From: a virus
DNA: 32,000 nt
Strand: one strand, 5' to 3'
IMG/VR virus record: IMGVR_UViG_3300006802_000085
Span: 1-32,000 of that record
Below are positions 6,817 through 29,377 of this stretch, piece after piece. The position numbers and the translations under genes were made by a program. The notes beneath the pieces were generated by a model. The model ran no database searches and had not been told where the DNA came from. It saw only the letters and a list, made by a program, of their open reading frames with translations. The first letter of the stretch is position 1, and each line of letters begins with the position of its first letter.

Positions 6817-6832
6817 CGTGAGGAGGCGGGCC

Positions 6833-7312
6833 GTGGGCTACTTCACGCAGACCGACCTAGAGAACGCGCTCAGCGTTGCGATCGTCAAGGCCATCTACGA
6901 CGACGACCGCGACGGTAGCGCGGACGAAGCAGCCGTCGCCGCGTGCATCGCCTACGGCTCGGCCATGTGCGACAGCTTCCTGCGCAAGATCGGCAGCAGC
7001 GCGGGCGGTGGTGCCGCGGTAACGCTCCCGCTGGCGACCGTGCCCGACGAGGTGAAGTTCGCCGCGCTCGACTTCGGCATCGCCTACAGCGTGCGGCGCC
7101 GCCCCGACATCGTGCGCGCGACCGGCGAGCAGCCGTGGACGGTCTTCTACGAGCAGGCGGTCGAGCAGATGAAGCGGTACATCTCCTCGATGCAGATGGT
7201 GAGCGCGACGGCGATGTCGCACGCCACCGTCGGCGGCAGCATCTTCGAGGGGCCCACCGGCACGGCGCTGCCCGCTCCGCGGTGGGGCAGCTCGTGGGGC
7301 GACTACTCGTGA
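6833..7312 (+). CDS. Head-tail connector protein, Mu gp36 / DUF1320-like
   Basis: GTG 6833 lies 6 nt after GAGGAGG. GYFTQTDLENAL...AAVAACIAYGSAMCDSFLRK...LPLATVPDEVKFAALDFGIAYSVRRR follows the DUF1320 pattern (Y.t..dl...ai..A...id.yL...Y.lPl...P..l......ia.Y.l..rr). Confidence 0.65.
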   Translation: MGYFTQTDLENALSVAIVKAIYDDDRDGSADEAAVAACIAYGSAMCDSFLRKIGSSAGGGAAVTLPLATVPDEVKFAALDFGIAYSVRRRPDIVRATGEQPWTVFYEQAVEQMKRYISSMQMVSATAMSHATVGGSIFEGPTGTALPAPRWGSSWGDYS

Positions 7313-8878: not shown

Positions 8879-9292
8879 ATGCAGCTCAGATTCTACGCGC
8901 GGGGTACCGCGCTCGTCGCCGACGTCCACGCGCAGGAGCACCCCACGCACCCGGTGCGTCGGTTCATCGGTCGCAGGTGGCAGGAGGTGGCGCCTGGCGA
9001 GTGGGGGTGGTGCCCCACCGAAGAGCCGCAGGCGGTCGCCTACCACCACGACGTCGCGCGCGCGGCGCGCGACGGTGACCTCTGGCCAGCCGACGCCGAA
9101 ACGGCGCGCGCGGTCGGTGTTCCCTTCGACCCCGACTTCGGCGGCGAGGCGACGGAAACGATCAAGGCGTGGCGCGCTCGCGCACACGCGCAGAGTGCGG
9201 CAGCGCCTCCGGGTCCTCCCCCTTCCCCGGAGGTCGCTGCTGCGCCGTCGTCGGACGAGGCCCCGCGTCGGGGCGGAAAGGGTGAGAGATAA
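8879..9292 (+). CDS. Hypothetical protein (137 aa)
   Basis: ATG 8879 with GAGGAG upstream. Its stop TAA overlaps the sheath ATG (TAATG). High GC3. Confidence 0.5.
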   Translation: MQLRFYARGTALVADVHAQEHPTHPVRRFIGRRWQEVAPGEWGWCPTEEPQAVAYHHDVARAARDGDLWPADAETARAVGVPFDPDFGGEATETIKAWRARAHAQSAAAPPGPPPSPEVAAAPSSDEAPRRGGKGER

Positions 9293-10821
9293 TGCCTGGT
9301 GCAATCGTCGTCCCGGGGTTGTCGGCTGACGATCCGACCCCGGGCAATTACCTCTCCATCGACTTCGCCCAAGGCGAGGCCGCGGGCTCGGGCTCGCCCA
9401 TCGAGGTCATCCTCATGGGCAACATGCTCAGCACGGGGTCTGCTACCGCCGACACGATCGTCTACGGACCGGACACCGTCGTGCAGCTCCAGACAGAGCA
9501 GGACGCGATCGACCTGTTCGGCACGGGCTCGGAGCTGCACCGCATGTTCCGGCGCTTCGTGAAGGTCAACAAGTCGACCACGCTCCGCGCCATCGCCGTC
9601 AGCGAGAGCGCGGGTTCGCAGGCGACGGGCACGTTCCGCTTCGTGGGCACCGCCACCGCCAACGGCACGGCGCGCCTGTACGTGCACGACGAGGTGATCG
9701 AGGTCGGCATCGCCACCAACGACACCGCGTCGACGGCGGCCACGAACATGGCCAACGCCATCAACCAGCAGTCACACTGGGGCGTCACCGCCGCCGCGAC
9801 GGCGACGGGCACGTGGGGCTTCGTCACGCTCACGGCGCGGCAGAAGGGTCCGCGCGGGAACGAGATCCGGTACCAGCCCGGCATCAGCCCCAACATCGGG
9901 CTCACCATCCCCACCGCCATCGATCTCCCGCTCGCCGACGGCGCGACCGCGGACAGCAACACCTCCGCGCTCTCGACGATCAACAACTCGAAGTACTACT
10001 ACATCGTGCCCGCCGCGACGGACGCGACGCAGCTCAACGCCGTCAGCGCGCAGATCAACACGAACGCAGCGCCCACCATCGGCATCCGTCAGCGGTGGAT
10101 CGCCGGAAGCGTCGACACCATCTCGAACACGAACTCCATCGCGACCGGGCGCAACAGCGCGCGCGGCGAGTTGGTGTGGAGCGAGAAGTCGCCGTGGACG
10201 GGCGCGGAGTTGGCGGCGAACCACGCCGCGGTCGTCACCCTCTTCGAGGTCAAGCCGAACCCGCGCACCAACTTCGCGGGCTTCGGAAACGACGGCGCGA
10301 CGGCACCGTACTGGCTCGTGCCGCGCCCGCGCCTCGACAGCGCGATCCCGTCGCGGACGAACATCAAGAGCGCGCTCAACAACGGCGTCTCGCCCATCGG
10401 CGTCAACCCGAACGGCACCACCTACTTCGTCAACCGCATCACCACGCGCTCGCTCAACGGGTCGAACAACGACTACCGTATCCGCGACGCGCACAAGGTC
10501 ACGATCTGCGACTTCTTCGGCGAGGACCTCCTCGCGAAGATCAGCCTGCAGTTCCCCGGCATGCGCATCGGCGACGACGCGCCCGACGGTGCGCCGCAGC
10601 CTGGTCCGAACGTGCTGACGCCGCGGCGTCTGCGCAACTGCGTCTTCGGCCTCATCGACGTCTACAGCGGGAACGACCTGCTGCAGGACGTCGACAAGAT
10701 CAAGGAGGCGACGCTGGTGCAGCGCGAGACGAACCCGCGCACCCGCATGGGTGTGCGTGTTCCGCTCCGCCCCATCGACAACTTCCTGCAGTCCGCGATC
10801 CACGTTCCGCAGGTGGCCTGA
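9292..10821 (+). CDS. Contractile tail sheath protein (Mu gpL-like)
   Basis: 509 aa directly upstream of the tube gene. Size, position and sheath-like segments (GNYLSIDFAQGEAAG...YYYIVPAATD...NGVSPIGVNPNGTTYFVNRITT) support the call. Confidence 0.85.
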   Translation: MPGAIVVPGLSADDPTPGNYLSIDFAQGEAAGSGSPIEVILMGNMLSTGSATADTIVYGPDTVVQLQTEQDAIDLFGTGSELHRMFRRFVKVNKSTTLRAIAVSESAGSQATGTFRFVGTATANGTARLYVHDEVIEVGIATNDTASTAATNMANAINQQSHWGVTAAATATGTWGFVTLTARQKGPRGNEIRYQPGISPNIGLTIPTAIDLPLADGATADSNTSALSTINNSKYYYIVPAATDATQLNAVSAQINTNAAPTIGIRQRWIAGSVDTISNTNSIATGRNSARGELVWSEKSPWTGAELAANHAAVVTLFEVKPNPRTNFAGFGNDGATAPYWLVPRPRLDSAIPSRTNIKSALNNGVSPIGVNPNGTTYFVNRITTRSLNGSNNDYRIRDAHKVTICDFFGEDLLAKISLQFPGMRIGDDAPDGAPQPGPNVLTPRRLRNCVFGLIDVYSGNDLLQDVDKIKEATLVQRETNPRTRMGVRVPLRPIDNFLQSAIHVPQVA

Positions 10822-14315: not shown

Positions 14316-16781
14316 ATGCCCGCACCCGTCGTCATCGAGTTCCTGCTGCGCGGCATGCCTGCGATCGACCGCGCCTTCAAGAGCGTGGAGCAGGCGGCGG
14401 CGGCGAGCGACCGCGCGCAGACGAACATCGCGCAGCGCGGTGCGCGGCAGCGGCAGAGCGCGGTCGAGAAGGAGGCTCAGGCGAAGGTCCGCGCGATGAT
14501 GAAGATGGACCGCGAGGTCAAGCGCATCCACGACAAGCTCACGCGCGAAGCCGAGCGCGCGGCGCAGCATGAGCTTCGGGTCGAGGAGCGGAAGGAGCAG
14601 GCGATTATCCGCGCGCGCGAGAAGCGTTCGCGCGAGGTCGAACGGCGTAACGAGCGTGACGCGCGCAACGCGCAGCGGTGGGCCGAGCGCCAACTCCAGA
14701 ACGAGCAACGCGCGGCGCAGCGCATGGAGCAGGTGCGGCAGCGGCGAGAGCAGCGCGAGCAACACATCACCGAGCGCAATGCCGATTACGACCGGCGCAG
14801 GTTCGCGCGCTCCATGGCGGGGCACGTGGTCTCGGGCGCGGCGCGAGGGGTGAGCCAAGTGGCGCAGACGACGGCGCGCGTTGGCGGCATGTTCGCGCAA
14901 CTCGGTGGCGGGTTCTCCGTGGCGGACGCGGTGCAGCAGCGCGGCAACATCGAGCGCGAGGCGGCGCTGCTCTCGAACCAGGCGTTCATTCCCAACCGCA
15001 CCGCGCGCCCTGGCGCGAAAGCGATCATGGCTCAGGCGAAGGCGACGAGCGCCGCGACCGGGATGGACATGCAGGACGTGATCGCGGGCACGCGACGGTT
15101 CGTCAACCTCACGGGCAACTACCAAGCGGCGGCGGCGAACCAAGAGTTCTTTGCCAAAGTAGCGAAGGCGACCGGTGCGCAGGTGACAGATATCGCGGGC
15201 ACGGCGGGCATGCTCATGGCGCAGAACCAAGGCATGAAGCCTGAAGAGATGCGCGAGACGCTCTTGCGCGTGATGATGCAGGCGAACCTCGGCGCCGTCG
15301 GCGTCGAAGACCTTGCGCGCGTTGGTGGCAAGCTCACGAAGACGAGCGCGAACTACTCGGGCTCGCAGACGGACACGCAGCGCCGCCTTCTCGGGCTGGC
15401 GCAGGTGGGCATCACCACCGGCGGAAACCCGGCCGAGACGCAGACAATGATCGCGAAGTTGTCGAGTGACGCGATCAAGAACCGCAAGAACCTCGAATCC
15501 ATGATGAAGGCTGGGGGCGTGACGGAGAAGACATTCGACGAGAAGGGCCGCATCGCCACGACCCCCGAGGAGCTGCTCGTCAATGCGCTGCAGGCGAGCG
15601 GTGGTCGAACGGACAAGCTTCAGGGTGTGTTCAAGGAGCGGTCGATCAAGTTGTTTCAAGCTCTTCAGCCCAAGTACTTCGAGTACGAGCAGGAGGCGAA
15701 GGACAAAGGAATTACCAAGGACGCGGACGTGCGCAAGTACGCGCGCGACCAGACGCTCAAGTACATCGAGGGCATCACCGCCAAAAGCTACGGGGAGGAG
15801 AACCTCAACAAGGACGTCGAGGAGGTGCTTGCCTCGGGCTCCGAGCAGTTCGAGAAGGCGATGCGCGATCTGCGCACCGAGGTCGGCGAGAAACTCATCC
15901 CCGAGTTCGTCAAGCTCATCCCCACGCTCAAGGAGCTGACGCCGATGCTCGTGGAGGCGTTGAAGGTCGGCGTGCCCGCGTTCATCAAACTGCTCAAGCA
16001 AGTGGGCGACTTCGCGAAGGCGCACGAAGGGATCATCAAGTCCATCGCCGCGAACCCGGTTGGTGCCATCATCGCCGCGAACGTCGGCGCGTCTATCGCG
16101 CAGGCGGGGCTCGCTGAGGTGCTACGTGCGGGGGTGGCGCGCGCCCTCGCGGCGCAGGTCGGCGGGCAGGTGGTGGGGCAAGGCGTCGCAGGCTCTACCG
16201 CTGCAGGTGTCCCCATGGGTACGCGCGTGGGTGCCGCGACGGGCGGTAGCGTGCTGGGGTACGTGGGCGCGGGCATCGCGCTTCAAGGCGCGCTCGCCTA
16301 CAACGAGGGCTCGCGCATCGCGGGCGACGACAAGGCTGCGCAGGACGCCATCGACCGCGCGGCGAAGGGCGACGCAACCGCGGTGCCCAACGCCATCGCC
16401 GCCGCGCAAGGGCGGCGGGGTGCGGGCGCTGCCACGCAGGCGACGATCACCGACGTCTCGCGCATGGCGAACTACATCAACCCGCTCGCCATCGCGGGGA
16501 TGTTCGCGAGCGACTACGTGACGAAGCAAGTCACGGGCAAGGACCCGATGGCGGTGCAGCAAAGCGCCGACTACCACAACGCGGGGGCGGAACTGCAGAC
16601 GCTCGGCGAGGCGCCCAAGATCATCGCCGCGCAGCAGAAGGTCGCCGACGAGAGCAAGGCACTCGCGGACGCACTCAAGGAGAACACAGCCGCCGTCGCT
16701 GCCGTCGCGCGGCAGAACGCGGGGCTGCCACCGGGCGGCGCCGCCGCAGGCACCGGCATCGTGCAAAGGCCGACGAAGTGA
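14316..16781 (+). CDS. Tail tape measure protein
   Basis: 821 aa. The N-terminal segment is charged coiled coil (Arg/Glu/Gln-rich), followed by a TMP core (ATGMDMQDVIAGTRRFVNLTG...) and a Gly/Ala-rich hydrophobic C-terminal region. Sits between chaperone and baseplate hub genes. Confidence 0.9.
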   Translation: MPAPVVIEFLLRGMPAIDRAFKSVEQAAAASDRAQTNIAQRGARQRQSAVEKEAQAKVRAMMKMDREVKRIHDKLTREAERAAQHELRVEERKEQAIIRAREKRSREVERRNERDARNAQRWAERQLQNEQRAAQRMEQVRQRREQREQHITERNADYDRRRFARSMAGHVVSGAARGVSQVAQTTARVGGMFAQLGGGFSVADAVQQRGNIEREAALLSNQAFIPNRTARPGAKAIMAQAKATSAATGMDMQDVIAGTRRFVNLTGNYQAAAANQEFFAKVAKATGAQVTDIAGTAGMLMAQNQGMKPEEMRETLLRVMMQANLGAVGVEDLARVGGKLTKTSANYSGSQTDTQRRLLGLAQVGITTGGNPAETQTMIAKLSSDAIKNRKNLESMMKAGGVTEKTFDEKGRIATTPEELLVNALQASGGRTDKLQGVFKERSIKLFQALQPKYFEYEQEAKDKGITKDADVRKYARDQTLKYIEGITAKSYGEENLNKDVEEVLASGSEQFEKAMRDLRTEVGEKLIPEFVKLIPTLKELTPMLVEALKVGVPAFIKLLKQVGDFAKAHEGIIKSIAANPVGAIIAANVGASIAQAGLAEVLRAGVARALAAQVGGQVVGQGVAGSTAAGVPMGTRVGAATGGSVLGYVGAGIALQGALAYNEGSRIAGDDKAAQDAIDRAAKGDATAVPNAIAAAQGRRGAGAATQATITDVSRMANYINPLAIAGMFASDYVTKQVTGKDPMAVQQSADYHNAGAELQTLGEAPKIIAAQQKVADESKALADALKENTAAVAAVARQNAGLPPGGAAAGTGIVQRPTK

Positions 16782-17770
16782 GCCCTCCCCCCGACCCCCC
16801 GAACCCCGACCCGACGGACGACGAGCACGACCTGCTCTTCGACCAGCTCCTCGAAGCGTCGTGGCGCGACGTGCCGTTCCCCGTCACGAAGATGAAGGTC
16901 TCGCTCGCGCACGACCTCGTCGAGCACAAGTACTGGGGCGTCGACGGTGCCTCGGTCGAGAACACCGGCGCGGCCCCGTGGCGCTACTCGTTCAGCGCGC
17001 CGTTCATCAACGGGCTGTCGAACTCGGGCGCGGAGACGTGGGATCACCGGCTCTACCCCGACCACCTACGCAAGTTCTTGGAGGCGTTCCAGGACAAGAG
17101 CGTGGGGCAGCTCCAGCACCCGGAGTTTGGGCTCATCTTCGCGAAGGCGGAGCGGCTCGACATCGACTGGGACGGCGGGCGTCGCGGCGGTGTCGAGGTC
17201 GAGATGTCGTTCGTCGAGACGAACGTGGAGGGGCAGACGGCACACCTCGACGCCAGCCCCATCGACAAGATCGATGCCGCCGCGGGCGAACTCAACTCGA
17301 TCATCAACAAGGCGGACTTCGCCGCGCTGCTCAAGAAGCAAGGGCTCGAACCGCCGCCGTACCTCAGCGACCCGACGTTCTCGTTCGAGGAAGCGATGAA
17401 CAAGATCAAGGCTGTCACCGACTACCCGACGCTGCTGAGCATGCGCGCGGGCGGGCGCATCGACGCCGTGATCTTCCAAGCTGAGCGCGTCGCCAAGAGC
17501 GCCGAGGCCGCCCGCTCCGCCGTGACGTGGCCCATCACGCAGAACGTGGAGCGCGTGAAGGCTGCTGCCTACAACCTCCGTGAGTCGTTGCTCGCTACGC
17601 GTTCGCGCCGCATCGCCTTCTTCACCGTGCCCGCCGACACCACCATCGCGGGCGTTGCGCGGCAGCTCCCGAGCGGGGCGAAGATGGGCGACGTGATCAA
17701 GCTCAACCCCGGGCTCATGCTCAACCCCGAGGTGTCGCGCGGCACCGTGGTTCGCTACTACGCAGACTGA
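16778..17770 (+). CDS. Mu gpN-like DNA circularisation / tail protein
   Basis: GTG 16778 overlaps the TMP stop. ASWRDVPFPV...LVEHKYWGVDGASVENTG matches the DNA_circ_N pattern (aSfrgvpF....he.P.rd...veDlG). The C-terminus looks LysM-like (TTIAGVARQL...GDVIKLNPGL). Confidence 0.7.
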   Translation: MSPPPDPPNPDPTDDEHDLLFDQLLEASWRDVPFPVTKMKVSLAHDLVEHKYWGVDGASVENTGAAPWRYSFSAPFINGLSNSGAETWDHRLYPDHLRKFLEAFQDKSVGQLQHPEFGLIFAKAERLDIDWDGGRRGGVEVEMSFVETNVEGQTAHLDASPIDKIDAAAGELNSIINKADFAALLKKQGLEPPPYLSDPTFSFEEAMNKIKAVTDYPTLLSMRAGGRIDAVIFQAERVAKSAEAARSAVTWPITQNVERVKAAAYNLRESLLATRSRRIAFFTVPADTTIAGVARQLPSGAKMGDVIKLNPGLMLNPEVSRGTVVRYYAD

Positions 17771-17773
17771 CCC

Positions 17774-19135
17774 GTGCCTACCTACTACGCGCCCACCCCG
17801 CCCGACGGTCAGGAGGTGCGGCTGCGCATCATGGATGGGCAAGTCGACCTCACGCAGTGGACCTCGTACGACTTCTCCAGCGACTTCCTCACGCCGAGCG
17901 ACTCGTTCTCGTTTCAGCTAGGTAGCGAGGGGCTCGCGGAGAAGCAACGTGCGGGGCTCAGGCTTGGCGCGCGCGTGCGCATCTACATCGACAGCATCAC
18001 GCTCGCCGAGGGGTTCATCGACTCCATCGAGATCAGCGCAACGCGCGGCGCGGGCGTCGTCTACAACATCCGCGGTCGCGACCGTCTGGGGCAGGCGCTC
18101 GACACGTGCGTCGATCCCGCGTTCCAGCTCAAGGAGGGCGGCACGCTGGCCGACCTCGTGCGGCGGCTGTACGCGCCGCTCGGCTTCGTTGCCGACGAGC
18201 ACTTTGTCGTCGACCCGAGCGCGAACCGCGATGCGCGCAGCGGCATCCGTGGCGTGCCCACCGCGAAGACGAAAAAGGCGAAGGCGGCTGCGAGCGCCGT
18301 TGACCTGCGAAGGGTCGTGCCCGCGGGGCACGTCATCATCCAGGATCCGAACGTCCGCGAACTCCCCGGCACCAACATCAAGCCGCTCAAGAGCTTCGTG
18401 CTGCACCAACTCAAGCCGTACAACCACGAGAGCGTCTATGCGTTCTCGGCGCGGGTCGCGCAACGCCATGGGTTGTGGATCCGCGTGAGCGCCGACGGCG
18501 AGCAGCTCATCCTCGCGAAGCCCGACTATGCCCAAGAGCCTGCGTTCATCCTCCATCGTTCGCGCACCGGCACGGGCAACGTCATCGACGGCACGGTGCG
18601 CTATGAGATGACCGACCAACCGACGATGATCATCGCCGACGGTTTCAGCGGCGGTGCCGAGTTCGGCAAGAGCCGCATCAAGGCGTTCATCGTCAACCCG
18701 CTGCTCGGGCTCACGGACGAGGGCGAGTACACCGACGAGGTGAAGGGGGTGTTGGAGAAGCACCCCCGCGCCGTCGAGAACACGTTGCCCGCCGCCGCCT
18801 TCCCCTTCCGCGCCGCCGACATCCCCTTCCGCCCGATGTACCTGCACGACGACGAGAGTAAGACGCAGGAGCAGCTCAACAACTTCGTCAAGCGCGAGAT
18901 GAGCCTGCGCTACCGTAAGAGCCTTCACGCCTCGTACACGGTCGAGGGGCACGGGCAGACCGTCAACGATCGCTTCATCACGTGGGTGCCCGACACCGTC
19001 GTCGAGGTGATCGACGAGGTCGCCGAGCTACGCGAGCGCATGTACGTGCTCGGCACGCACTGGACGAAGTCGCGCGGTGGTAGCGGCACGACGACGAAGA
19101 TCGATCTCGTTCGATTGAACGCGCTCGTGCTCTAG
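17774..19135 (+). CDS. Baseplate hub protein (P2 gpD / Mu gpP-like)
   Basis: 453 aa. Position after the gpN-like gene and gpD-like N-terminal pattern (LRIMDGQVDLTQW...SDSFSFQLG...GARVRIYIDSITLAEGFIDSIE...IRGRD). Confidence 0.8.
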   Translation: MPTYYAPTPPDGQEVRLRIMDGQVDLTQWTSYDFSSDFLTPSDSFSFQLGSEGLAEKQRAGLRLGARVRIYIDSITLAEGFIDSIEISATRGAGVVYNIRGRDRLGQALDTCVDPAFQLKEGGTLADLVRRLYAPLGFVADEHFVVDPSANRDARSGIRGVPTAKTKKAKAAASAVDLRRVVPAGHVIIQDPNVRELPGTNIKPLKSFVLHQLKPYNHESVYAFSARVAQRHGLWIRVSADGEQLILAKPDYAQEPAFILHRSRTGTGNVIDGTVRYEMTDQPTMIIADGFSGGAEFGKSRIKAFIVNPLLGLTDEGEYTDEVKGVLEKHPRAVENTLPAAAFPFRAADIPFRPMYLHDDESKTQEQLNNFVKREMSLRYRKSLHASYTVEGHGQTVNDRFITWVPDTVVEVIDEVAELRERMYVLGTHWTKSRGGSGTTTKIDLVRLNALVL

Positions 19136-19145
19136 GAGGAGACGC

Positions 19146-19844
19146 ATGGCAGCCATCGACCTTGCGGGCCTGTTCAAGGTCGGCATCGACATCCTCACCA
19201 CCACCGTCAACGCGACGACCAAGAAGATCTTGGCGCAGCTTGGCAGCGTGACCGAGGAGACGACCGACACCGACAACGCCGAGTGGTGGCAACACGTCGG
19301 CTTCGCCTCCCGCCCGCCCAAGCCGCAGGCGAAGAAGCAGGCAGCGCAGGCACTCACGTTCACATCCAGCGACCACGACGTCATCTTCGCAAGTCAGGAC
19401 CTGCGCGGGTTGGAGTTGTACGGTAGCTTGGCGCACGGCGAGACGTGCGTGTACGCAGCCGGTGAGGACGGTGAGGCGCAGGCCCGCGCGCTGTTCAAGA
19501 AGAACGGATCGATCGCGCTCTACACCCGCGTCGGCAACACGAGCAACGGCGCGGGGATGATCGTCCAACTCGACGCCGAGAACGACGCCATCCGTATCAC
19601 CAACGGAGCCGGGCACGGCATCATCATCGACGGCGACGGCGTGCGCGTCTTCGCGAACGGTAGCGGTGCGCTCACGGTCGGCGCGAGCGGCAAGTGCTCG
19701 CTCGTGGCGACGCAGCAGTGCCAAGTCGACGGCTCGTCGATCGTGCTTGGTTCGGTTGCGGTGCCCGTCGTCAACAGCGTGTGCGTTGGCCCCGCGGGCA
19801 TCGCCGCGGCGGCGAGCACCAAGGTCTTCGCCGCCATCGCGTAG
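19146..19844 (+). CDS. Baseplate spike protein (gpV / Mu gp45-like)
   Basis: ATG 19146 with GGAGGAG upstream. WWQHVGFASRPP...DVIFASQDLRGLELYGSLAHGETCVY fits the Mu gp45/gpV N-terminal pattern. The C-terminal half is Gly-rich beta. Confidence 0.75.
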   Translation: MAAIDLAGLFKVGIDILTTTVNATTKKILAQLGSVTEETTDTDNAEWWQHVGFASRPPKPQAKKQAAQALTFTSSDHDVIFASQDLRGLELYGSLAHGETCVYAAGEDGEAQARALFKKNGSIALYTRVGNTSNGAGMIVQLDAENDAIRITNGAGHGIIIDGDGVRVFANGSGALTVGASGKCSLVATQQCQVDGSSIVLGSVAVPVVNSVCVGPAGIAAAASTKVFAAIA

Positions 19845-19855
19845 GGAGGTCGGGC

Positions 19856-20188
19856 ATGTCGTGCGGCTTCCCCTCGTTCAGCCTCCCCGGGCTGCCGTCG
19901 TTGAGCCTGCCCGGCATCCCCTCGATCTCGTTCTCGCTCTCGATCCCGTGGCCGGACCTCGACCTGAGCATGACGCTGCCGTCGCTCTCGCTCCCCGGGT
20001 TGCCGTCGCTCTCGCTCCCCGGCATCCCCTCGATCTCGTTCTCGCTCTCGATCCCGTGGCCGGACCTCGACCCGAGCCTGGAGCTACCTTCGCTCTCGCT
20101 CCCCGGGCTGCCGTCGTTGAGCCTGCCCGGCATCCCCTCGATCTCGTTCTCGATCGCGCTACCCGACTTCCCCTGCCCCTTGGATTGA
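19856..20188 (+). CDS. Triple-repeat Pro/Ser/Leu-rich protein (110 aa) immediately after the spike gene
   Basis: ATG 19856 with GGGAGG (19844-19849). Nearly every codon ends in G/C in this frame. Three 36-aa repeats built from octads such as LPSLSLPG and IPSISFSL. Cys occurs near both termini. Confidence 0.55.
   Translation: MSCGFPSFSLPGLPSLSLPGIPSISFSLSIPWPDLDLSMTLPSLSLPGLPSLSLPGIPSISFSLSIPWPDLDPSLELPSLSLPGLPSLSLPGIPSISFSIALPDFPCPLD
19868..20185 (+). repeat. Tandem repeat, 108-bp period, about 2.9 copies (coding)
   Basis: The landmark CCGGCATCCCCTCGATCTCGTTCTCG recurs starting at 19911, 20019 and 20127, exactly 108 bp apart. The units are near-identical. Confidence 0.85.
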
Positions 20189-20192
20189 AACG

Positions 20193-20774
20193 ATGGCGCT
20201 CTCCGGCTCTGCGATCGGCAGCATCATGGCGGCGGCGGTCGGCGCGCCCGCGTCCGCGGGCGGTATGTTCGCCGCGCTCGGCACCGCGATCCAGGGGTGG
20301 GCGGTGAGCAAGGTCACGGTCGTGCCTACGACGATGGCGGCGGTGGGCGGCGTCGTCAGCGGGCTCGGCATCTTCACGGTCACCGGCGACGCCGTCGAGC
20401 TTGGCGGCTTGCTCGCGGACGCGCTCACGCTGCCCGTCGACGCGACGAGCGCGCGCGAGGTCTGGATCGCGACGGCGCAGGCGCTCATCGATCACTTCAC
20501 CAGCTTCGGGCAAGTCAACGGTACCGGCTTCACCAGCGGGGTGCCGCTCGCGGGCGCGGGCACCGTGGTGTGGACCTCGCCCGTGTTCGTGCCGCCGCTC
20601 GCGGTGCGCATCGGCGTGAGCGACCCCGTCGCGGGCGCACTGCTCGCGCTCTTAGAGGCGCAGCTCCTTCTCTACATTCAGATCAACGCGAACGTGGTCT
20701 CGGTCTCGCTCAGCGGCCCGCCGATGAGCGCCCCCACCGACGGGCCCGTGGCGGGCACGGGCACGATCGTCTGA
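20193..20774 (+). CDS. Ala/Gly-rich hydrophobic hypothetical protein (193 aa)
   Basis: ATG 20193 lies 4 nt after the upstream stop. High GC3. No family recognised. Confidence 0.5.
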   Translation: MALSGSAIGSIMAAAVGAPASAGGMFAALGTAIQGWAVSKVTVVPTTMAAVGGVVSGLGIFTVTGDAVELGGLLADALTLPVDATSAREVWIATAQALIDHFTSFGQVNGTGFTSGVPLAGAGTVVWTSPVFVPPLAVRIGVSDPVAGALLALLEAQLLLYIQINANVVSVSLSGPPMSAPTDGPVAGTGTIV

Positions 20775-20805: not shown

Positions 20806-21294
20806 ATGGCAGGAGCAGGCAACCAAGGCGCAGGCGCGTCGAGCGCAGGGGGTGGCACGCCCGCGCTCGCGAACGTGCCGAGCGGTGGCTTCCTTGCCGA
20901 CCCGTGGTCGAAGGTTCCGCTCGGCGCACGCAAGGTCGACCCGCACACTCGCGACTACGTCATCGACAAGGTTACCGGGCGCATCATCGGGGTGGGTAGT
21001 GTGCGCGCCGCTGTACAGATGAGCGTCCACATGGCGAAGCGGAGCAGCGCCGTGTTCGAGATGGGCCACGACCTCGCCGCGATCCAGCGCATCACGCCCA
21101 ACACCCGCAAACGCGTTCTCGCCACGCTCACGGACGCGCTCGCGCCGCTCATCCGCTTGGGTCTCGTCGAGGTCGTGGGGTTCACGCAGTACAAGGTGGG
21201 CGACGGGCTCAACGGCATGGAGCGCGGCGCAGTGTTTGGGCGCTTGCAATGGCGCGACCTGACGACGGGACAAGCCTTCACCGAGGTGGTGTGA
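20806..21294 (+). CDS. Putative baseplate protein (Mu gp46 / gpW-gp25 position)
   Basis: 162 aa directly upstream of the J-like gene. VRAAVQMSVHMAKRSSAVFEMGHDL...LTDALAPLIRLGLVEVVGF loosely fits the baseplate wedge W/gp46 pattern. Confidence 0.45.
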   Translation: MAGAGNQGAGASSAGGGTPALANVPSGGFLADPWSKVPLGARKVDPHTRDYVIDKVTGRIIGVGSVRAAVQMSVHMAKRSSAVFEMGHDLAAIQRITPNTRKRVLATLTDALAPLIRLGLVEVVGFTQYKVGDGLNGMERGAVFGRLQWRDLTTGQAFTEVV

Positions 21295-21295
21295 G

Positions 21296-22813
21296 ATGGC
21301 TGAGCTGAACGAGTTCGTTACCAAGGACGCGATCGAGATTCGAGACGACGTGCTGCGCACGATTAAGAACGGACTCATCAAGCAGGGCGTCACCGCGCCT
21401 TACGTTGGGCCGAACTCCGACTGGTACATCATCGCGACGTCGCTCGGTAACGAGTTGGCGGTGGTGCACGCGAACACGATCATCAAGGCCGACCAGCAGA
21501 TGCCCGACACCGCGGTCGTGGACGACCTCGCGCGCATCGCTGCGCTCTACAAGCGCGAGAAGCAGGGGGCCGCGGGTAGCGTCGGCAACGTCATCATCAC
21601 CGCGAGCGCGGACGCGCCCATCGTGACCGGCGCAGAGCTAACGGACGCGCTCGGCCTGCGCTACGCCGTCACCGCGGGCGGTACCTACGCCAACGGCGCG
21701 AGTGTCCCCATCCAAGCGATCGACACCAGCGACGACACCAACCACGCCGAGGGCGACGTGCTCACGTGGGTGAGCGCGCCCCCGTACTGCGACGACAAGG
21801 TCACCGTGGCCGCGGGCGGGCTCGTCAACGCGATCGACGAGGAGGACGACGAGGTGCTCCGTGCCCGCCTACTCGACTTCCTCGCCACCCCGCCCGGGGC
21901 GGGCAACTGGGAGCACGTGGCGGAGCTGGCCGAGGAAGCGAGCGCGAGCGTGCAGAAGGCGTTCACCTATCCCGCCGTCGGTGGCCCCGCCACCGTGCAC
22001 ATCGCCGTCGCTGCCGCGCCCACGGCAACAAGCAAGAGCCGCGCGGTGGCGAGTACGACCGTTAGCGGCATCGTGGACCCATACATCAAGGGCAAGCTCC
22101 CGACCCACCCCCACGTGGTGACGACGACGTGCACCGACGTGAATGTGGACGTCGCCATCGGGCTGAGCTTGCCCGAGGCCGCGACCGCGAACCCGCCGGG
22201 GCCTGGTGGTGGGTGGACGAACGGCACGCCGTGGCCGAGCGTCGACGGCACCAGCAATTTCAAGTGTGAGGTCACGGCGGTGACGAGCAACACCGCGTTT
22301 ACGGTCGACGCGCAGACGGCGCCCGTCGCCAACGTCACGCGCGTCGCGTGGCTCTCCACCGTGGACTGGACGGTCAAGACCGCGCTCGTCACCGCGTACA
22401 GCGGGAGCGCGGGCGCGTACTCCATCACCATCGACTCGCCCTTCACCGGCGTTGCGGTCGGCGCGTTGATCTGGCCCGAGTGCCAGAACGCGTCTACGTA
22501 CATCGGTGCTGTCCTCGCCGCGTTCGCGCTCATGGGTCCGGGCGAGAAGACGAGCAACGCCTCCGCGCTCGCGCGTGGTTTCCGGCACCCAACGCCCGCC
22601 AACTCGTGGCCATACTCGGTCGGGCCCGCAATCGAACGCGCGGTGACAGACGCGGGGGACGAGGTGCTCTCGTCGTCGTTCCTGTACCGCAGCGACGGCA
22701 CGGTGACGGTCAACGGTAGCGGCGGCGTGCTCACGCCCCAGGTGCCCGCCGCCATCACCGACGCGCCGAACATCTACGTGCCACGTCACATCGCGCTCTA
22801 CCGTCGAGCGTAG
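21296..22813 (+). CDS. Baseplate J-like protein (Mu gp47 / P2 gpJ family)
   Basis: 505 aa. N-terminal pattern (FVTKDAIEIRDDVLRTIKNGL...DWYIIATSLGNELAVVHAN...DDLARIAALY...GSVGNVIITAS...IQAIDTSDDTNHAEGDVLTW...EEDDEVLRARLLD) is typical of the Baseplate_J family. Confidence 0.85.
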   Translation: MAELNEFVTKDAIEIRDDVLRTIKNGLIKQGVTAPYVGPNSDWYIIATSLGNELAVVHANTIIKADQQMPDTAVVDDLARIAALYKREKQGAAGSVGNVIITASADAPIVTGAELTDALGLRYAVTAGGTYANGASVPIQAIDTSDDTNHAEGDVLTWVSAPPYCDDKVTVAAGGLVNAIDEEDDEVLRARLLDFLATPPGAGNWEHVAELAEEASASVQKAFTYPAVGGPATVHIAVAAAPTATSKSRAVASTTVSGIVDPYIKGKLPTHPHVVTTTCTDVNVDVAIGLSLPEAATANPPGPGGGWTNGTPWPSVDGTSNFKCEVTAVTSNTAFTVDAQTAPVANVTRVAWLSTVDWTVKTALVTAYSGSAGAYSITIDSPFTGVAVGALIWPECQNASTYIGAVLAAFALMGPGEKTSNASALARGFRHPTPANSWPYSVGPAIERAVTDAGDEVLSSSFLYRSDGTVTVNGSGGVLTPQVPAAITDAPNIYVPRHIALYRRA

Positions 22814-23564: not shown

Positions 23565-23918
23565 ATGTCGACGACGATCAAGACGCAGATCAGCATGAAG
23601 AGCAGCGGCGAAGGGCTGCAGGCCGAGAGCGAGTGGAAGAGCACGCTCGTGACCAACACTCTCGGTCCCGCGGGAGGTCCGGTTCGTGCGCTCCTCGCCA
23701 CGGGCGTCAACACGCTCACGGTACCGACGGGGGCGCGCAGCATCAGCATCCAGCCGCCCGAGGCGTCGACGGCGCGGTTCAACCTACCCGGTGTCTCCGG
23801 CGGCACGGGGATGATCCTCCGCACCGGCGACGCGTCACTGCACCCGCTGCCAACGGGCACGTCGAGCGTGCTCGTCGCGAGCGATAGCCAAGAACTGGTG
23901 TTCCTCCACTGGGGGTGA
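23565..23918 (+). CDS. Hypothetical protein (117 aa)
   Basis: ATG 23565 with GGGAG 6 nt upstream; ATG 23550 is an alternative start. Its stop overlaps the next start. Confidence 0.5.
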   Translation: MSTTIKTQISMKSSGEGLQAESEWKSTLVTNTLGPAGGPVRALLATGVNTLTVPTGARSISIQPPEASTARFNLPGVSGGTGMILRTGDASLHPLPTGTSSVLVASDSQELVFLHWG

Positions 23919-24658
23919 TGCGCATGGGCTACGGCGGATATCACCCTTACCCGCGCCGCTTCGGCGGCGGACGCCCGCGGTTGCGCATCGTGCACGACGC
24001 GCTCAACGCAGCGCGCGGTACCGCGATCAACGCCTCGGACACGACGACCGTAGCGTGGGTCGAGAACATGGCGTACGCCCGCGCGATCACGTTCGACGGT
24101 TACGGGCAGAACGAGCGCATGGCGCTGCAGTGGGACCCCGAGCGGATGACCGCGTTTCTTCCGCGATGGGAGCGCATCTTTAGGATCACGCCACCGCCGA
24201 CCGCCACCGACCGCGAGCGGCGCGTCGCGGTGCTGCGCGCCTTTCGCCGAGTGCTCGACGCGTCGGGCCTGCACGAGCGGCTCGTTAGCGCGCTCGCGGC
24301 TGAGATCCCCGACTACTTCAGCGCGGTCGAGTACATCGACATCACCAACGCCGTCGTCAACGTACCCGACAACACCTACCCGTGGGGCACGCCCAACGCC
24401 GCGGTGCCGTGGTCGTCGACGGTGGCTCACGTACTCATCCTCCTCATCAAGCCCGCGAACGCGAACGAGCGCGACTTCTACGCAGCCGCGTCCAAGGTCG
24501 CACCCATCGCCGACCGTATCCTGCCCACGTGGTGCTCGTTCGACTGGTACCGCGCACCGGCGGGCGGGCCCGCCGTCAACGTCAGCGGCGGCCCGAGTCA
24601 GGGCGGCTTCTACCTCGACGACGATCACAACCTCGACAACAACGTGTTTGATGTCTGA
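23915..24658 (+). CDS. Tail/baseplate protein, DUF2313 (Mu gp48 / YmfQ-like)
   Basis: WDPERMTAFLPRWERIFRITPPPTATDRERRVAVLRAF matches the DUF2313 hallmark (dP.t....L..WEr..gl.p......eRr..v.a). Lies downstream of the J-like gene. Confidence 0.6.
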   Translation: MMRMGYGGYHPYPRRFGGGRPRLRIVHDALNAARGTAINASDTTTVAWVENMAYARAITFDGYGQNERMALQWDPERMTAFLPRWERIFRITPPPTATDRERRVAVLRAFRRVLDASGLHERLVSALAAEIPDYFSAVEYIDITNAVVNVPDNTYPWGTPNAAVPWSSTVAHVLILLIKPANANERDFYAAASKVAPIADRILPTWCSFDWYRAPAGGPAVNVSGGPSQGGFYLDDDHNLDNNVFDV

Positions 24659-24962
24659 GGTCGTGTGTCCCGCGTGCGGTGCGGCGGAGCAGGTCGACGG
24701 CGACTGCACCTTCACCGAGATCGGACTCTTTCGCTGCGACGCGTGCAGCGCACGCTTCGTCTTCGGCAAGCGGGTGCCGCGCGTGGTGATCGAACCGTGC
24801 CGCGGACCGCAGCAGATGCTCTGGACCCGCATGCGCGTCTACGACCCCGTCACCGGTGTCGAGGCGTGCGTGCTCGAATTCGACCCGGCCTTCGCCGACG
24901 CCGTCGCCGACAACCTCAAGGCGATGAGCCGGTTGGCGCAGCACCCGAACAGGAGAACGTGA
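24651..24962 (+). CDS. Small CxxC...CxxC zinc-ribbon protein (103 aa)
   Basis: ATG 24651 overlaps the upstream gene by 8 nt. The sequence reads VVCPACGAAE...(17 aa)...RCDACSARF. Confidence 0.5.
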   Translation: MSEVVCPACGAAEQVDGDCTFTEIGLFRCDACSARFVFGKRVPRVVIEPCRGPQQMLWTRMRVYDPVTGVEACVLEFDPAFADAVADNLKAMSRLAQHPNRRT

Positions 24963-28894: not shown

Positions 28895-29377
28895 ATGAGT
28901 GACCCCGTTCTCGACAGCAAGCTCCGCGAGTTTCTCGAAGCCGAGCACGAGTCGCGCTCGCGCGGTCATACCGCCGCGAACATCATGCTCGCGATCAGCT
29001 CGATGCGGCAGGAGCATCGCGAGCTAGCTGCGCGCTACGAGTCGACGGCGCTGCGTCACGAGCTGCGTCTCGACCGCCACGGCCAACGGCTGAAGAAGTT
29101 GGAAAACCGACTCGACTTCGCGCAAGACGAGATGGACACGGGCACGCACCAGATCGCTGACCTGCAGCGCGCGCTCGCGGACAAACAGAACGAGATCAAC
29201 GAACGCAAAGCCGATTCGATCTGGTGGCGGCGGCAGAAGTGGCAGTGGCTCGTCGCCGCCCTCGGCGCCCTCGCCCTCGTCGGCATCACCACCACCCTCG
29301 GCGTGCTCGGCTTCTTCATTGCGCGGTCGCTCTCGGTGGCCGCGCCGCAACAGCAACAGCAACAGCAACCGAAGTGA
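28895..29377 (+). CDS. Coiled-coil protein with C-terminal TM anchor and poly-Gln tail
   Basis: ATG 28895 with GAGGTGG upstream. Heptad-rich N-terminal 120 aa are followed by WWRRQKWQWLVAALGALALVGITTTLGVLGFFIA and then QQQQQQQPK, encoded by a CAA/CAG repeat at 29349-29369. Confidence 0.55.
   Translation: MSDPVLDSKLREFLEAEHESRSRGHTAANIMLAISSMRQEHRELAARYESTALRHELRLDRHGQRLKKLENRLDFAQDEMDTGTHQIADLQRALADKQNEINERKADSIWWRRQKWQWLVAALGALALVGITTTLGVLGFFIARSLSVAAPQQQQQQQPK

What the first reader, a model, noticed from the sequence alone, without database searches (positions are those of the whole stretch)
19856..20188. 110-aa protein built from three near-identical 36-aa repeats in the PAAR position after the spike gene
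Directly after the gpV/Mu gp45-like spike gene, with a good RBS (GGGAGG), lies an ORF consisting of 2.9 tandem copies of a 108-bp unit. Its peptide is (L/F)PS(L/F)SLPG-LPSLSLPG-IPSISFSL-SIPWPDLD-xxxx, an 8-residue sub-periodicity reminiscent of beta-helical needle repeats. Almost every codon ends in G/C in this frame only, so it is coding. One Cys lies near each terminus (C3, C107). A monomer with internal pseudo-threefold symmetry encoded next to a trimeric spike is the design principle of PAAR tip proteins. The sequence, however, has no PAAR motif and is extremely Pro/Ser/Leu-rich. It may be a new spike-tip or membrane-piercing cap. The near-identity of the DNA repeats also implies recent duplication or ongoing gene conversion, and copy number could vary.
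Basis: partly seen in the sequence, partly recalled or inferred. Interest (0 to 1): 0.7.

Follow-up and report, generated by a model that had tools for sequence, protein, structure and literature searches.

The report
New three-repeat protein beside phage spike
A real, conserved 110-residue phage gene made of three near-identical greasy, proline-rich repeats, with one cysteine near each end, sits next to the tail-spike gene in dozens of related uncultured Mu-like phages; it belongs to an undescribed protein family that most likely forms part of the membrane-piercing spike tip, though this is inferred and not shown.

Summary
ORF 19856-20188 (+) is a 110-aa gene made of three 36-aa units, with GC3 of 0.96 in this frame only, a GGGAGG ribosome-binding site, and Cys3 and Cys107. 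It is not an assembly artefact, because two other assemblies carry the same 333 bases while differing at 8-11 nearby sites.

It belongs to a family with no match in Pfam, PHROGs, NCBIfam or PDB sequences. A homologue lies next to the central-spike gene in 14 of 17 hub-anchored and 26 of 34 spike-anchored IMG/VR loci. All members share an N-terminal Cys and a C-terminal C-P-L-[D/E/N].

Repeat-type members have units of 32-53 aa but always about 3.0 copies (one exception with 2). The copies evolve in concert, and dN/dS is 0.33, equal to the spike's.

The neighbouring gene folds confidently as a contractile-system central spike. It lacks the C-terminal HxH iron apex, as do 120 of 120 homologues. 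No PAAR domain turned up in the window ORFs I scanned.

A spike-tip or cap role is therefore the best reading, at about 0.45. It remains unproven: AlphaFold2 gave no fold (pLDDT 34), non-repeat four-Cys and one-module variants exist, and the 8-residue sub-period is not conserved across the family. Copy number does not vary.

The parts
19844..19849 (+). Ribosome-binding site GGGAGG, six bases upstream of the ATG. It overlaps the last base of the spike gene's TAG stop.
   Evidence: Read directly from the sequence.
19856..20188 (+). 110-aa three-repeat gene with a Cys near each end (the finding).
   Evidence: GC3 is 0.964 in this frame only. Homologues sit at the same position in more than 35 loci. 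dN/dS is 0.33 against the L030 orthologue. The ORF is identical in L024 and L025.
19862..19864 (+). Codon for Cys3, the conserved N-terminal cysteine (position 2-5 in repeat-type and four-Cys members).
   Evidence: Alignments A2 and A6 and the family table.
19865..19972 (+). Repeat unit 1 (36 aa: GFPSFSLPGLPSLSLPGIPSISFSLSIPWPDLDLSM).
   Evidence: Register and pairwise differences computed.
19973..20080 (+). Repeat unit 2 (TLPSLSLPGLPSLSLPGIPSISFSLSIPWPDLDPSL).
   Evidence: It differs from unit 1 at 19 of 108 bases, 6 codon changes being synonymous and 5 not.
20081..20173 (+). Repeat unit 3 up to Pro106 (the codon before Cys107). It diverges after the IPSISFSI strand.
20174..20185 (+). C-terminal motif C-P-L-D. 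The Cys is invariant and the P and L nearly invariant across the family. It aligns with the 'PDLD' that ends units 1 and 2.
   Evidence: Alignment A6: C107 invariant, P108 and L109 at least 90% conserved.
19146..19844 (+). Central spike gene (232 aa, gp45/gpV-like), with beta-strands running to the very C-terminus and no HxH motif.
   Evidence: AF2 mean pLDDT 88.9. Top Foldseek PDB matches are contractile-system central spikes: 7b5h_AJ at 2.9e-5, 7aef_q, PhiTE 9cuy_Y and R2 pyocin spike 4s37. 0 of 120 homologues have HxH in the last 80 residues. Weak Mu_Gp45 and VgrG profile matches.
17774..19135 (+). Baseplate hub gene (Mu gp44/GpP-like).
   Evidence: Pfam GpP-like_1st at 9.9e-9; phrog_177 'baseplate hub' at 5.9e-33.
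16778..17770 (+). Mu gp43-like gene (DNA_circ_N; tube initiator).
   Evidence: Pfam PF07157 at 1e-13. The role in Mu is taken from PMC11915804.
20193..20774 (+). 193-aa Ala/Gly/Val-rich ORF starting 4 nt after the repeat ORF. It is an accessory gene found in only a subset of related loci.
   Evidence: No Pfam or PHROG match. tblastn finds it only in L030-33, L045, L015/L051 and L039.
20806..21294 (+). 162-aa ORF assigned as the gp46-like baseplate wedge by its position before Baseplate_J; no family match. It is found throughout the related loci.
   Evidence: tblastn matches in nearly all related loci, always just before the J gene.
21296..22813 (+). Baseplate_J (gp47-like) gene.
   Evidence: Pfam PF04865 at 1.4e-17.
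19771..20133 (-). Antisense ORF (120 aa). It is a by-product and not a gene.
   Evidence: This antisense frame can only acquire stops opposite sense Tyr, His or Gln codons, and the protein has none. The same frame is open in nearly all repeat-type homologues, whatever their G+C.

Best explanation
The ORF encodes a small structural accessory of the tail's central spike complex. It is the founding example of an undescribed family of proline-rich, hydrophobic, 'Cys-clasped' proteins.

Most likely mechanism (inferred):
- One copy sits on the three-fold axis at the blunt distal end of the gp45-like spike trimer.
- Each of the three ~36-aa repeats offers the same short amphipathic beta-strands (PSLSLP / PSLSLP / PSISFSLSIP) to one spike chain.
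- The N- and C-termini meet, and Cys3 and Cys107 (the latter in C-P-L-D) hold them together, by a disulfide or a shared metal ion, closing the ring.
- The proline-stiffened, greasy body then forms the membrane-attacking tip. It would do the job that PAAR/gp5.4 does in T4 and T6SS, and that the fused HxH-iron apex does in P2 and Mu.

Shown here: the gene is real, is under purifying selection, is tied to the spike gene, and keeps three repeats and the terminal cysteines.

Not shown: presence in virions, stoichiometry, fold, the contact with the spike, and the chemistry of the two cysteines.
For: 1. Position. A family member lies directly next to the spike gene, after it or between hub and spike, in L001-L006. 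The same holds in 14 of 17 hub-anchored IMG/VR loci and 26 of 34 spike-anchored loci. Two more loci carry one-module versions, and a Sorangium chromosome carries one in a prophage. Starts and stops abut or overlap the neighbouring genes.

2. The spike needs a tip. The neighbouring gene models as a contractile-system central spike whose strands run to its last residues. None of 120 homologues has the C-terminal HxH motif. [quoted passage not shown] No PAAR domain was found in the protein, its family, or the other window ORFs scanned.

3. Co-occurrence. L013/14, L018, L063 and L065/66 have spikes ending in a different, helix-like C-terminal domain, and they have no small gene. L061/62 also lack it, but the spike C-terminus there was not examined closely.

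4. Three-fold design. Unit length ranges from 32 to 53 aa, yet copy number is 2.95-3.15 in about 24 distinct sequences. Units change together: SLSLPG in all three units of the window corresponds to DLDLPS in all three units of L030.

5. Selection. dN/dS is 0.33, the same as for the spike.

6. Size and strands. Members are 99-125 aa, which I recall is about the size of a minimal PAAR domain. The period-2 (beta-type) hydrophobic moment exceeds shuffled controls (z = 1.4-5.0).

7. Cysteines. The family has an invariant C-terminal Cys and a conserved N-terminal Cys. Four conserved cysteines that bind metal define the PAAR-like DUF4280 tips (PMC5014421), which is a precedent.
Against: - AlphaFold2 with a 7-sequence alignment gave no fold (mean pLDDT 34, pTM 0.13). 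Neither the fold nor any interface is supported by modelling.
- There is no sequence relation to PAAR, DUF4280 or any PDB chain.
- The family includes non-repeat members of 84-101 aa with four Cys, one-module members of about 50-60 aa, and one two-repeat member (P0004). Internal three-fold symmetry is therefore not universal.
- The composition (21% Pro, 37% L/I/V/F/M, GRAVY 0.65, up to 1.3 in relatives) resembles no known tip protein I am aware of and would also suit a membrane-inserting or disordered protein.
- The window's protein has only two Cys and no His, too few for a metal site of its own.
- There are no proteomic or structural data. The adjacent 193-aa ORF is an alternative tip candidate in this particular phage.
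Confidence: 0.45

Rival explanations
1. It is a membrane-active ejection or 'pilot' protein. It would be carried in or on the hub-spike complex, or in the tube lumen, without acting as a rigid cap. On contraction it would be released and would insert its amphipathic beta-strands into the host outer or inner membrane, helping the tape measure and DNA to cross.
For: - Strong hydrophobicity: GRAVY 0.5-1.3 and 33-48% L/I/V/F/M.
- Four-Cys relatives end in a long hydrophobic or amphipathic helix.
- The family profile's only PDB match is a weak one (E = 0.015) to ApoB-100 residues 2689-2764. From memory, that lies in its lipid-binding amphipathic beta-belt.
- The profile also resembles AHNAK-type repeats.
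- No compact fold was predicted.
- This reading shares all the synteny evidence with the best explanation and is not strictly exclusive of it.
Against: - A copy number fixed at three despite variable unit length is hard to explain for a simple membrane-inserting peptide.
- The gene is absent exactly where the spike C-terminus is replaced, which points to a specific partnership with that end of the spike.
- The many prolines break up every hydrophobic stretch, so classic transmembrane helices are not expected in the repeat type.
Confidence: 0.2
2. It is a non-virion assembly factor. It would act as a chaperone or temporary plug that helps the spike trimer or hub fold and assemble, and would be absent from the finished particle.
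For: Small genes beside tail structural genes are often chaperones (general knowledge). No fold was predicted. The gene's position relative to the spike varies, before it in L006/L021/L022 and after it elsewhere.
Against: From general knowledge, chaperones are usually acidic and soluble, not this hydrophobic. Conserved terminal cysteines and a fixed three-fold repeat are not expected features of a chaperone. It evolves at the same dN/dS as the spike.
Confidence: 0.15
3. It forms a homotrimeric beta-helical needle extension. Three chains would wind together and continue the spike's triple beta-helix, which is the first reader's 8-residue 'needle repeat' idea.
For: The window's protein has an 8-residue sub-period (self-identity 0.31 at lag 8). 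One-module relatives could only cover a three-fold axis as trimers.
Against: The 8-residue period is absent from the other four members tested, whose best short lags are 2, 3, 7, 10 or 13. A trimer gives no reason for exactly three internal repeats in each chain. Two prolines per eight residues is unlike the VxGxxxxx repeats of T4 gp5 (from memory).
Confidence: 0.08
4. It is not a real gene: an assembly artefact, a non-coding repeat, or the antisense ORF is the true gene.
For: All six frames are largely open across the repeat. Short-read contigs break there.
Against: - The ORF is identical in three slightly different assemblies.
- Orthologues at 77% identity and below keep the frame, start, stop and termini in loci of 46-70% G+C.
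- GC3 is 0.96 and dN/dS is 0.33.
- The antisense frame is open only because the protein lacks Tyr, His and Gln.
Confidence: 0.02

Closest known systems
PAAR-repeat spike-tip proteins (Pfam PF05488; T4 gp5.4, VCA0105, P1 UpfC)
   Same: Small size (about 100 aa). Encoded beside a spike that lacks a fused apex. Built from three internal repeats, which would fit one chain on a three-fold axis. [quoted passage not shown] The background comes from PMC12407873; the three-repeat build of PAAR is from memory.
   Different: No PAAR motif and no HMM match. No His, and only two Cys instead of a 3 His + 1 Cys zinc site (PMC5014421). The composition is extremely Pro/Leu/Ser-rich and hydrophobic. The repeats are nearly identical to each other, whereas from memory PAAR repeats are diverged. 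No PAAR-like fold could be predicted.
PAAR-like DUF4280 proteins (Francisella IglG)
   Same: A tip family recognised mainly by conserved cysteines. Four Cys bind Fe or Zn and are each required for function (PMC5014421). The non-repeat sister subtype here also has exactly four conserved Cys: one N-terminal, a central CC pair, and one C-terminal.
   Different: No sequence match to DUF4280. The window's protein has two Cys, not four. The Cys spacing and the composition are unrelated.
Fused apex domain of P2 gpV, Mu gp45 and R2 pyocin PA0616
   Same: The same genomic module (hub, spike, wedge genes) and the same task at the distal end of a gp45-type spike. In Mu the apex carries Fe and Ca ions (PMC11915804).
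   Different: In those systems the tip is part of the spike chain and is built around three HxH motifs. Here the spike has no HxH (0 of 120 homologues) and a separate gene follows it.
RB43 orf205w (proposed non-PAAR spike tip)
   Same: A precedent that the locus after the spike gene can encode a tip unrelated to PAAR (PMC12407873).
   Different: orf205w is about 690 aa and largely alpha-helical, with no sequence or size resemblance to this protein.
AHNAK/periaxin-type repeat proteins of animals
   Same: The best scores in the exhaustive profile search come from proteins with short hydrophobic-Pro-x-hydrophobic-x-hydrophobic-Pro units, for example MPKFKMPSFG. One of these hits carries an N-terminal PDZ domain.
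   Different: These are giant eukaryotic cytoskeletal or membrane scaffold proteins (1,000-7,500 aa) that are highly charged. They lack the terminal Cys motifs and have no phage context. The resemblance is one of repeat pattern, and common descent is not shown.

Membership tests
PAAR (PF05488) and PAAR-like (DUF4280, DUF4150) spike tips | Sequence match to the family profile (PAAR motifs). | tested here: not met
   hmmscan against Pfam found no such hit for the window protein at E <= 0.1, nor for any of 21 family members at E <= 10. PDB searches with the sequence and with the profile found no PAAR chain.
PAAR (PF05488) and PAAR-like (DUF4280, DUF4150) spike tips | Metal site: 3 His + 1 Cys in PAAR, or 4 Cys in DUF4280. 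| tested here: not met
   The window protein has no His and only Cys3 and Cys107. The sister non-repeat subtype has four conserved Cys. The criterion is taken from PMC5014421.
PAAR (PF05488) and PAAR-like (DUF4280, DUF4150) spike tips | A single chain of about 100 aa with three internal repeats forming a cone. | tested here: inconclusive
   Size (99-125 aa) and three repeats are met. The fold could not be predicted (pLDDT 34).
PAAR (PF05488) and PAAR-like (DUF4280, DUF4150) spike tips | Binds as a monomer to the blunt end of the spike beta-helix. | not testable with these tools
   No multimer prediction was available. Only indirect support exists: the spike lacks HxH and has strands to its C-terminus, and the gene is absent where the spike C-terminus differs.
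Central spike of simple contractile tails (Mu gp45 / P2 gpV) - the neighbouring gene 19146-19844 | Spike fold (in Mu gp45 an OB-fold followed by a beta-helix), encoded after the hub gene. | tested here: met
   AF2 mean pLDDT 88.9. Foldseek matches contractile-system spikes at E = 2.9e-5 to 1e-3, probability 0.99-1.00. The gene follows the GpP-like hub.
Central spike of simple contractile tails (Mu gp45 / P2 gpV) - the neighbouring gene 19146-19844 | Fused apex domain with a C-terminal HxH iron site. | tested here: not met
   No HxH in the last 80 residues of the window spike or of any of its 119 aligned homologues.
Proposed new family: Cys-clasped, Pro-rich, spike-adjacent proteins | N-terminal Cys (position 2-5), C-terminal C-P-L-[D/E/N/K], 12-29% Pro, and a gene adjacent to the spike. 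| tested here: met
   The window protein runs MSC...CPLD with 21% Pro. The same features appear in the repeat-type and four-Cys members found. The one-module versions keep CPLD but have their first Cys at position 8 or 19.
T4 gp5-type triple beta-helix octapeptide repeats | A conserved 8-residue periodicity. | tested here: not met
   A lag-8 self-identity peak (0.31) is present only in the window's protein. The other four members tested peak at lags 2, 3, 7, 10 or 13.
o-spanin / bacterial lipoprotein | Signal peptide with a lipobox before the Cys, and a location in the lysis cassette. | tested here: not met
   The Cys is residue 3, so there is no room for a signal peptide, and the gene lies inside the baseplate operon.
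AHNAK-like repeat proteins | A giant multi-repeat scaffold with an N-terminal PDZ domain. | tested here: not met
   Only the repeat pattern matches. The architecture, size and terminal motifs differ.

The most novel reading that the evidence does not exclude
This is a second, non-PAAR solution to capping a trimeric spike. It would be a 'single-chain trimer' that arose by triplication of a one-module, Cys-flanked ancestor, of which the ~50-60-aa relatives may be survivors that cap the spike as homotrimers. Two of the three inter-module joints would have become peptide bonds: the internal '...PDLD-LSMT...' junctions line up with C-terminal 'CPLD' followed by N-terminal 'MSCG'. The remaining joint would be closed by the terminal Cys pair. 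Gene conversion would keep the three modules identical because each faces an identical spike chain. The greasy amphipathic-beta surface would act directly on the lipid bilayer during puncture.
Probability: 0.25. Interest if true: 0.8.

Novelty: new variant of a known kind. Interest (0 to 1): 0.62.

Why it matters
How contractile tails finish their spike is known for two designs: a fused HxH-iron apex, and a separate PAAR-type tip. A third has been proposed for RB43.

A whole clade of Mu-like phages has neither of the two established designs. At least some of its members are myxobacterial: one prophage sits in a Sorangium chromosome, and one spike homologue is labelled Labilithrix. In place of those designs, this clade carries a conserved, unannotated mini-protein beside the spike gene.

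If it is the tip, three things follow:
- It would be a new fold class for membrane puncture, and a compact one that could be engineered onto tailocins or eCIS.
- It would be a clean natural example of a repeat protein whose copy number is fixed by the symmetry of its partner, while gene conversion keeps the copies alike.
- It would supply a missing annotation for many metagenomic phage tails.

If it is not the tip, these spikes are left without any known tip, which is itself worth explaining.

Tried and rejected
- Structure prediction of the 110-aa protein with a 7-member alignment gave pLDDT 34 and no secondary structure, so it is uninformative.
- The protein has no match in Pfam, PHROGs, NCBIfam or PDB sequences. 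The only hits are noise-level: a proline-rich stretch of a tape-measure PHROG (E >= 0.0012, 4 of 21 members) and ApoB-100 (E = 0.015).
- There is no match among cultured-phage records. The hub protein finds only distant Mu-like phages there.
- The first scan of genome contigs, with the hub protein, found nothing. The second, with the spike profile, found Sorangium sp. So ce1014 and one Saccharibacteria MAG.
- The exhaustive representative search was dominated by AHNAK-like eukaryotic giants. I rejected these as homologues because only the repeat pattern is shared. P0002 and P0007 were rejected as low-complexity matches without the terminal motifs.
- The antisense ORF was rejected as a gene.
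- Lipoprotein/spanin, sortase-motif and RiPP-like ideas were dropped. There is no signal peptide, the hosts are Gram-negative, and the gene lies in a baseplate operon.
- Literature searches found no paper describing such a protein.
Full report
**1. The observation**

The stretch 19856-20188 (+) is an ATG-to-TGA ORF of 110 codons. GGGAGG precedes it by six bases, and the previous gene's stop lies 12 nt upstream. Tandem Repeats Finder reports a 108-bp unit at 19883-20152 (2.5 copies, 87% matches, score 449), the strongest array in the 32-kb window. At the protein level the period is 36 aa, with 76% self-identity and 3.06 copies.

G+C by codon position is 0.52/0.56/0.96, the signature of coding sequence in this 68% G+C DNA. 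The flanking genes have GC3 of 0.85-0.94. Between units, serine codons switch between AGC and TCG and leucine codons between TTG and CTC, while the peptide LPSLSLPG is unchanged. That is what selection on the protein looks like. The only cysteines are Cys3 and Cys107.

The repeat is not an assembly artefact. Two other assemblies (L024 from ENA, L025 from JGI) differ from the window at 8 and 11 sites over 5.7 kb, yet contain exactly the same 333 bases. Short-read Logan contigs end inside the repeat, as expected for a true repeat. The antisense ORF 19771-20133 is open only because that frame can acquire stops only opposite sense Tyr, His or Gln codons, and the protein has none.

**2. Context**

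The window is the structural region of a Mu-like tailed phage or prophage. I identified the following genes:

| Coordinates | Assignment |
|---|---|
| 2526-3608 | prohead protease/scaffold |
| 4378-5562 | capsid |
| 6818-7312 | Mu gp36-like |
| 9292-10821 | sheath |
| 14316-16781 | tape measure (by position) |
| 16778-17770 | DNA_circ_N (gp43-like) |
| 17774-19135 | GpP-like hub |
| 19146-19844 | 232-aa spike |
| 19856-20188 | the repeat ORF |
| 20193-20774 | 193-aa ORF |
| 20806-21294 | 162-aa gp46-like ORF (by position) |
| 21296-22813 | Baseplate_J |
| 23915-24658 | gp48-like |

The protein has 215 database homologues. With 120 of them as an alignment, AlphaFold2 gives mean pLDDT 88.9, with strands running to residue 229 of 232. 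The best Foldseek matches in the PDB are central spikes of contractile injection systems:
- Anabaena CIS 7b5h_AJ (E = 2.9e-5)
- Algoriphagus eCIS 7aef_q
- phage PhiTE 9cuy_Y
- R2 pyocin spike 4s37
- the PVC, phiKZ and P1 spikes

None of the 120 spikes has an HxH motif in its last 80 residues.

According to PMC12407873, HxH-bearing spikes carry a fused iron-binding apex. [quoted passage not shown] Mu gp45 itself has the fused apex, with Fe and Ca ions (PMC11915804). No PAAR domain was detected in any window ORF I scanned.

**3. A family, not a one-off**

A word-indexed search with the 110-aa protein found P0001 (144 aa, E = 1.3e-17), P0003 and P0004. A profile search added P0005, P0006 and P0008. 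All begin M-x(1-3)-C and end C-P-L-[D/N/E/K] (P0005 ends C-I-L-D plus four residues), with hydrophobic-Pro repeats in between.

Their contigs show the same operon. P0001 and P0006 follow the spike gene. P0008 and P0004 lie between the hub and the spike.

I then anchored on the neighbouring genes:
- A hub profile retrieved 17 IMG/VR loci, and 14 of them have such an ORF beside the spike. One of these (L021) has a single-base frameshift.
- A spike profile retrieved 34 loci, 26 with the ORF. Two more carry one-module versions of about 50-60 aa ending CPLD.
- Close relatives of the window (spike 77-78% identical: L030-32, L033) have 105-107-aa orthologues with three repeats.
- A complete Sorangium sp. 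So ce1014 chromosome carries the module, with three repeats, though its ATG is one base out of frame.
- One spike homologue is labelled Labilithrix. Myxobacteria are therefore likely hosts of at least part of the clade.

No member matches any Pfam, PHROGs or NCBIfam model or any PDB sequence, and cultured-phage records contain none.

**4. Anatomy of the family**

There are three architectures.

(a) Repeat type, 99-144 aa with two Cys. Units are 32, 33, 34, 35, 36, 37, 39, 41 or 53 aa long in different lineages. Copy number is nevertheless 2.95-3.15 in about 24 distinct sequences. P0001, P0003, P0008 and the Sorangium copy also show three units by eye. The single exception is P0004, with two units, from a 3-kb contig whose DNA could not be fetched.

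(b) Non-repeat type, 84-101 aa with exactly four Cys: one N-terminal, a central CC pair near residues 34-46, and one C-terminal. It has a Pro-rich first third and a hydrophobic helix-like tail.

(c) One-module type of about 50-60 aa.

Within a repeat-type protein the units are 50-79% identical, while proteins of different lineages differ in both sequence and unit length. Between the window and L030, three positions differ in all three units at once (SLSLPG against DLDLPS). The predicted copy-number variation, however, is not seen.

dN/dS between the window and L030 is 0.27/0.83 = 0.33. The spike gives 0.18/0.55 = 0.33.

The 8-residue sub-period is specific to the window's protein among the five members tested. 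The period-2 hydrophobic moment exceeds shuffled controls in repeat-type members (z = 1.4-5.0), and the helical moment does not. This fits short amphipathic beta-strands between prolines.

Members are unusually hydrophobic (GRAVY 0.5-1.3). The window's protein has no basic residue.

The internal unit junctions of the window's protein ('...PWPDLD-LSMT-LPSL...') line up with its own C-terminus followed by its N-terminus ('...FPCPLD' + 'MSCG-FPSF...'). This follows from the register.

**5. Link to the spike's distal end**

L013/14, L018, L063 and L065/66 have spikes that end in a different, helix-like C-terminal domain. In these loci the spike gene is followed directly by the gp46-like gene, with no small Cys gene. 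L061/62 also lack the small gene.

The 193-aa ORF that follows the repeat ORF in the window occurs in only a subset of loci. The small protein is therefore the only widely shared extra partner of this spike type.

**6. Interpretation**

The data show a real, selected gene of a new family, tied genetically to a spike that lacks the usual fused tip. The reading I favour, at about 0.45, is that it is the tip or cap of that spike.

Under that reading:
- One chain lies on the three-fold axis.
- The three repeats each face one identical spike chain. That would explain why exactly three copies are kept and why they are kept alike.
- The two terminal cysteines clasp the ends together, by a disulfide or a shared metal.

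Cysteine-based metal sites do define one class of PAAR-like tips (PMC5014421), and a non-PAAR tip has been proposed for RB43 (PMC12407873).

The weak points are serious. No fold was predicted and no multimer modelling was possible. The non-repeat and one-module relatives show that three-fold internal symmetry is not obligatory. The composition would equally suit a membrane-inserting released protein (about 0.2) or an assembly factor (about 0.15). A trimeric beta-helical needle (about 0.08) fits the window's 8-residue period but not the family. An artefact or non-coding reading is excluded for practical purposes.

**7. Comparison and novelty**

The protein works, on this reading, like a PAAR tip. 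It is not a member of PAAR or DUF4280: the profile match and the metal-ligand set were both tested and not met. The best hits of its profile in an exhaustive search are AHNAK-like animal repeat proteins, which I take as pattern resemblance only.

I class it as a new variant of a known kind, a spike accessory or tip, carried by an undescribed protein family. I score interest at 0.62. The comparative pattern of fixed triplication, concerted evolution, a terminal Cys clasp and an apex-less spike is striking and directly testable, but the function is inferred.

Noticed in passing
window 20193-20774 (+): A 193-aa Ala/Gly/Val-rich ORF starts 4 nt after the repeat ORF. It has no Pfam or PHROG match. 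Homologues occur in only some related loci (L030-33, L045, L015/L051, and L039, where it lies before the small gene). It is an alternative or additional spike or baseplate accessory.
   Followed up: partly
L026 (ends at window 19900); L027-L029 (end after the first repeat unit): Short-read Logan assemblies consistently break inside this repeat gene. The family is therefore probably under-represented, or truncated, in metagenome gene catalogues. The window's own protein was not returned by the protein-collection search.
   Followed up: partly
L027:3200-3390 (same in L028, L029): About 190 nt of non-coding DNA lies between the spike stop and the small ORF in the closest relative (spike 82% identical). 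It contains internally repeated motifs (CATGACTCC.GAG and TTCGGTTGCGA.CC) and may be a small mobile insertion.
   Followed up: no
L067:3260-3589 (Sorangium sp. So ce1014, NZ_CP150356.1): A prophage in a complete myxobacterial genome carries the three-repeat ORF. The ATG that overlaps the spike's TAA is one base out of frame with the ORF, leaving no canonical in-frame start. This could be decay, a sequencing error or an unusual start.
   Followed up: partly
L021:6137-6449: The three-repeat homologue has a single-base frameshift in its second unit (an error or a pseudogene).
   Followed up: yes
L007/L038, L008/L044, L010, L016/L058, L019, L052, L057: A sister subtype without repeats is 84-101 aa long and has four conserved Cys (N-terminal, central CC, C-terminal CPL[N/D/E]) and a hydrophobic helix-like tail. 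The hub proteins closest to the window's among the IMG/VR loci (58-59% identity) pair with this subtype and with longer, Ala-rich spike C-termini.
   Followed up: partly
L060:3700-3891; L064:3713-3883: One-module versions (63 and 56 aa as called) end in FCPLD and TCPLD and have a single upstream Cys. They may represent the ancestral unit.
   Followed up: partly
L013/14, L018, L063, L065/66 (and L061/62): In L013/14, L018, L063 and L065/66 the spike's distal beta-helix is replaced by a helix-like C-terminal domain and the small Cys gene is missing. L061/62 also lack the small gene.
   Followed up: partly
P0009-P0154 (protein-representative hits): The family profile scores highest (E down to 6e-169, dozens of stretches) on giant AHNAK-like eukaryotic repeat proteins. 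One of them carries an N-terminal PDZ domain. A weak PDB hit falls in ApoB-100 residues 2689-2764. Both share amphipathic, Pro-punctuated beta-type repeats.
   Followed up: partly
window 19771-20133 (-), and the same antisense frame in most repeat-type homologues: The antisense frame offset by one base is open across the whole gene in nearly all repeat-type loci, even at 46-48% G+C. The reason is that stops in that frame require sense Tyr, His or Gln codons, which these proteins lack.
   Followed up: yes
window 28895-29377, 24648-24962, 31232-31999: Weak XhlA-like hit (possible lysis gene), a Zn-ribbon-like 104-aa ORF after the gp48-like gene, and a family-2 glycosyltransferase at the window's right edge.
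   Followed up: no
L001:10623-10889 (-), L003:4124-4573 (-): An HNH endonuclease gene is inserted on the opposite strand just after the Baseplate_J gene in the P0001-bearing phage.
   Followed up: no
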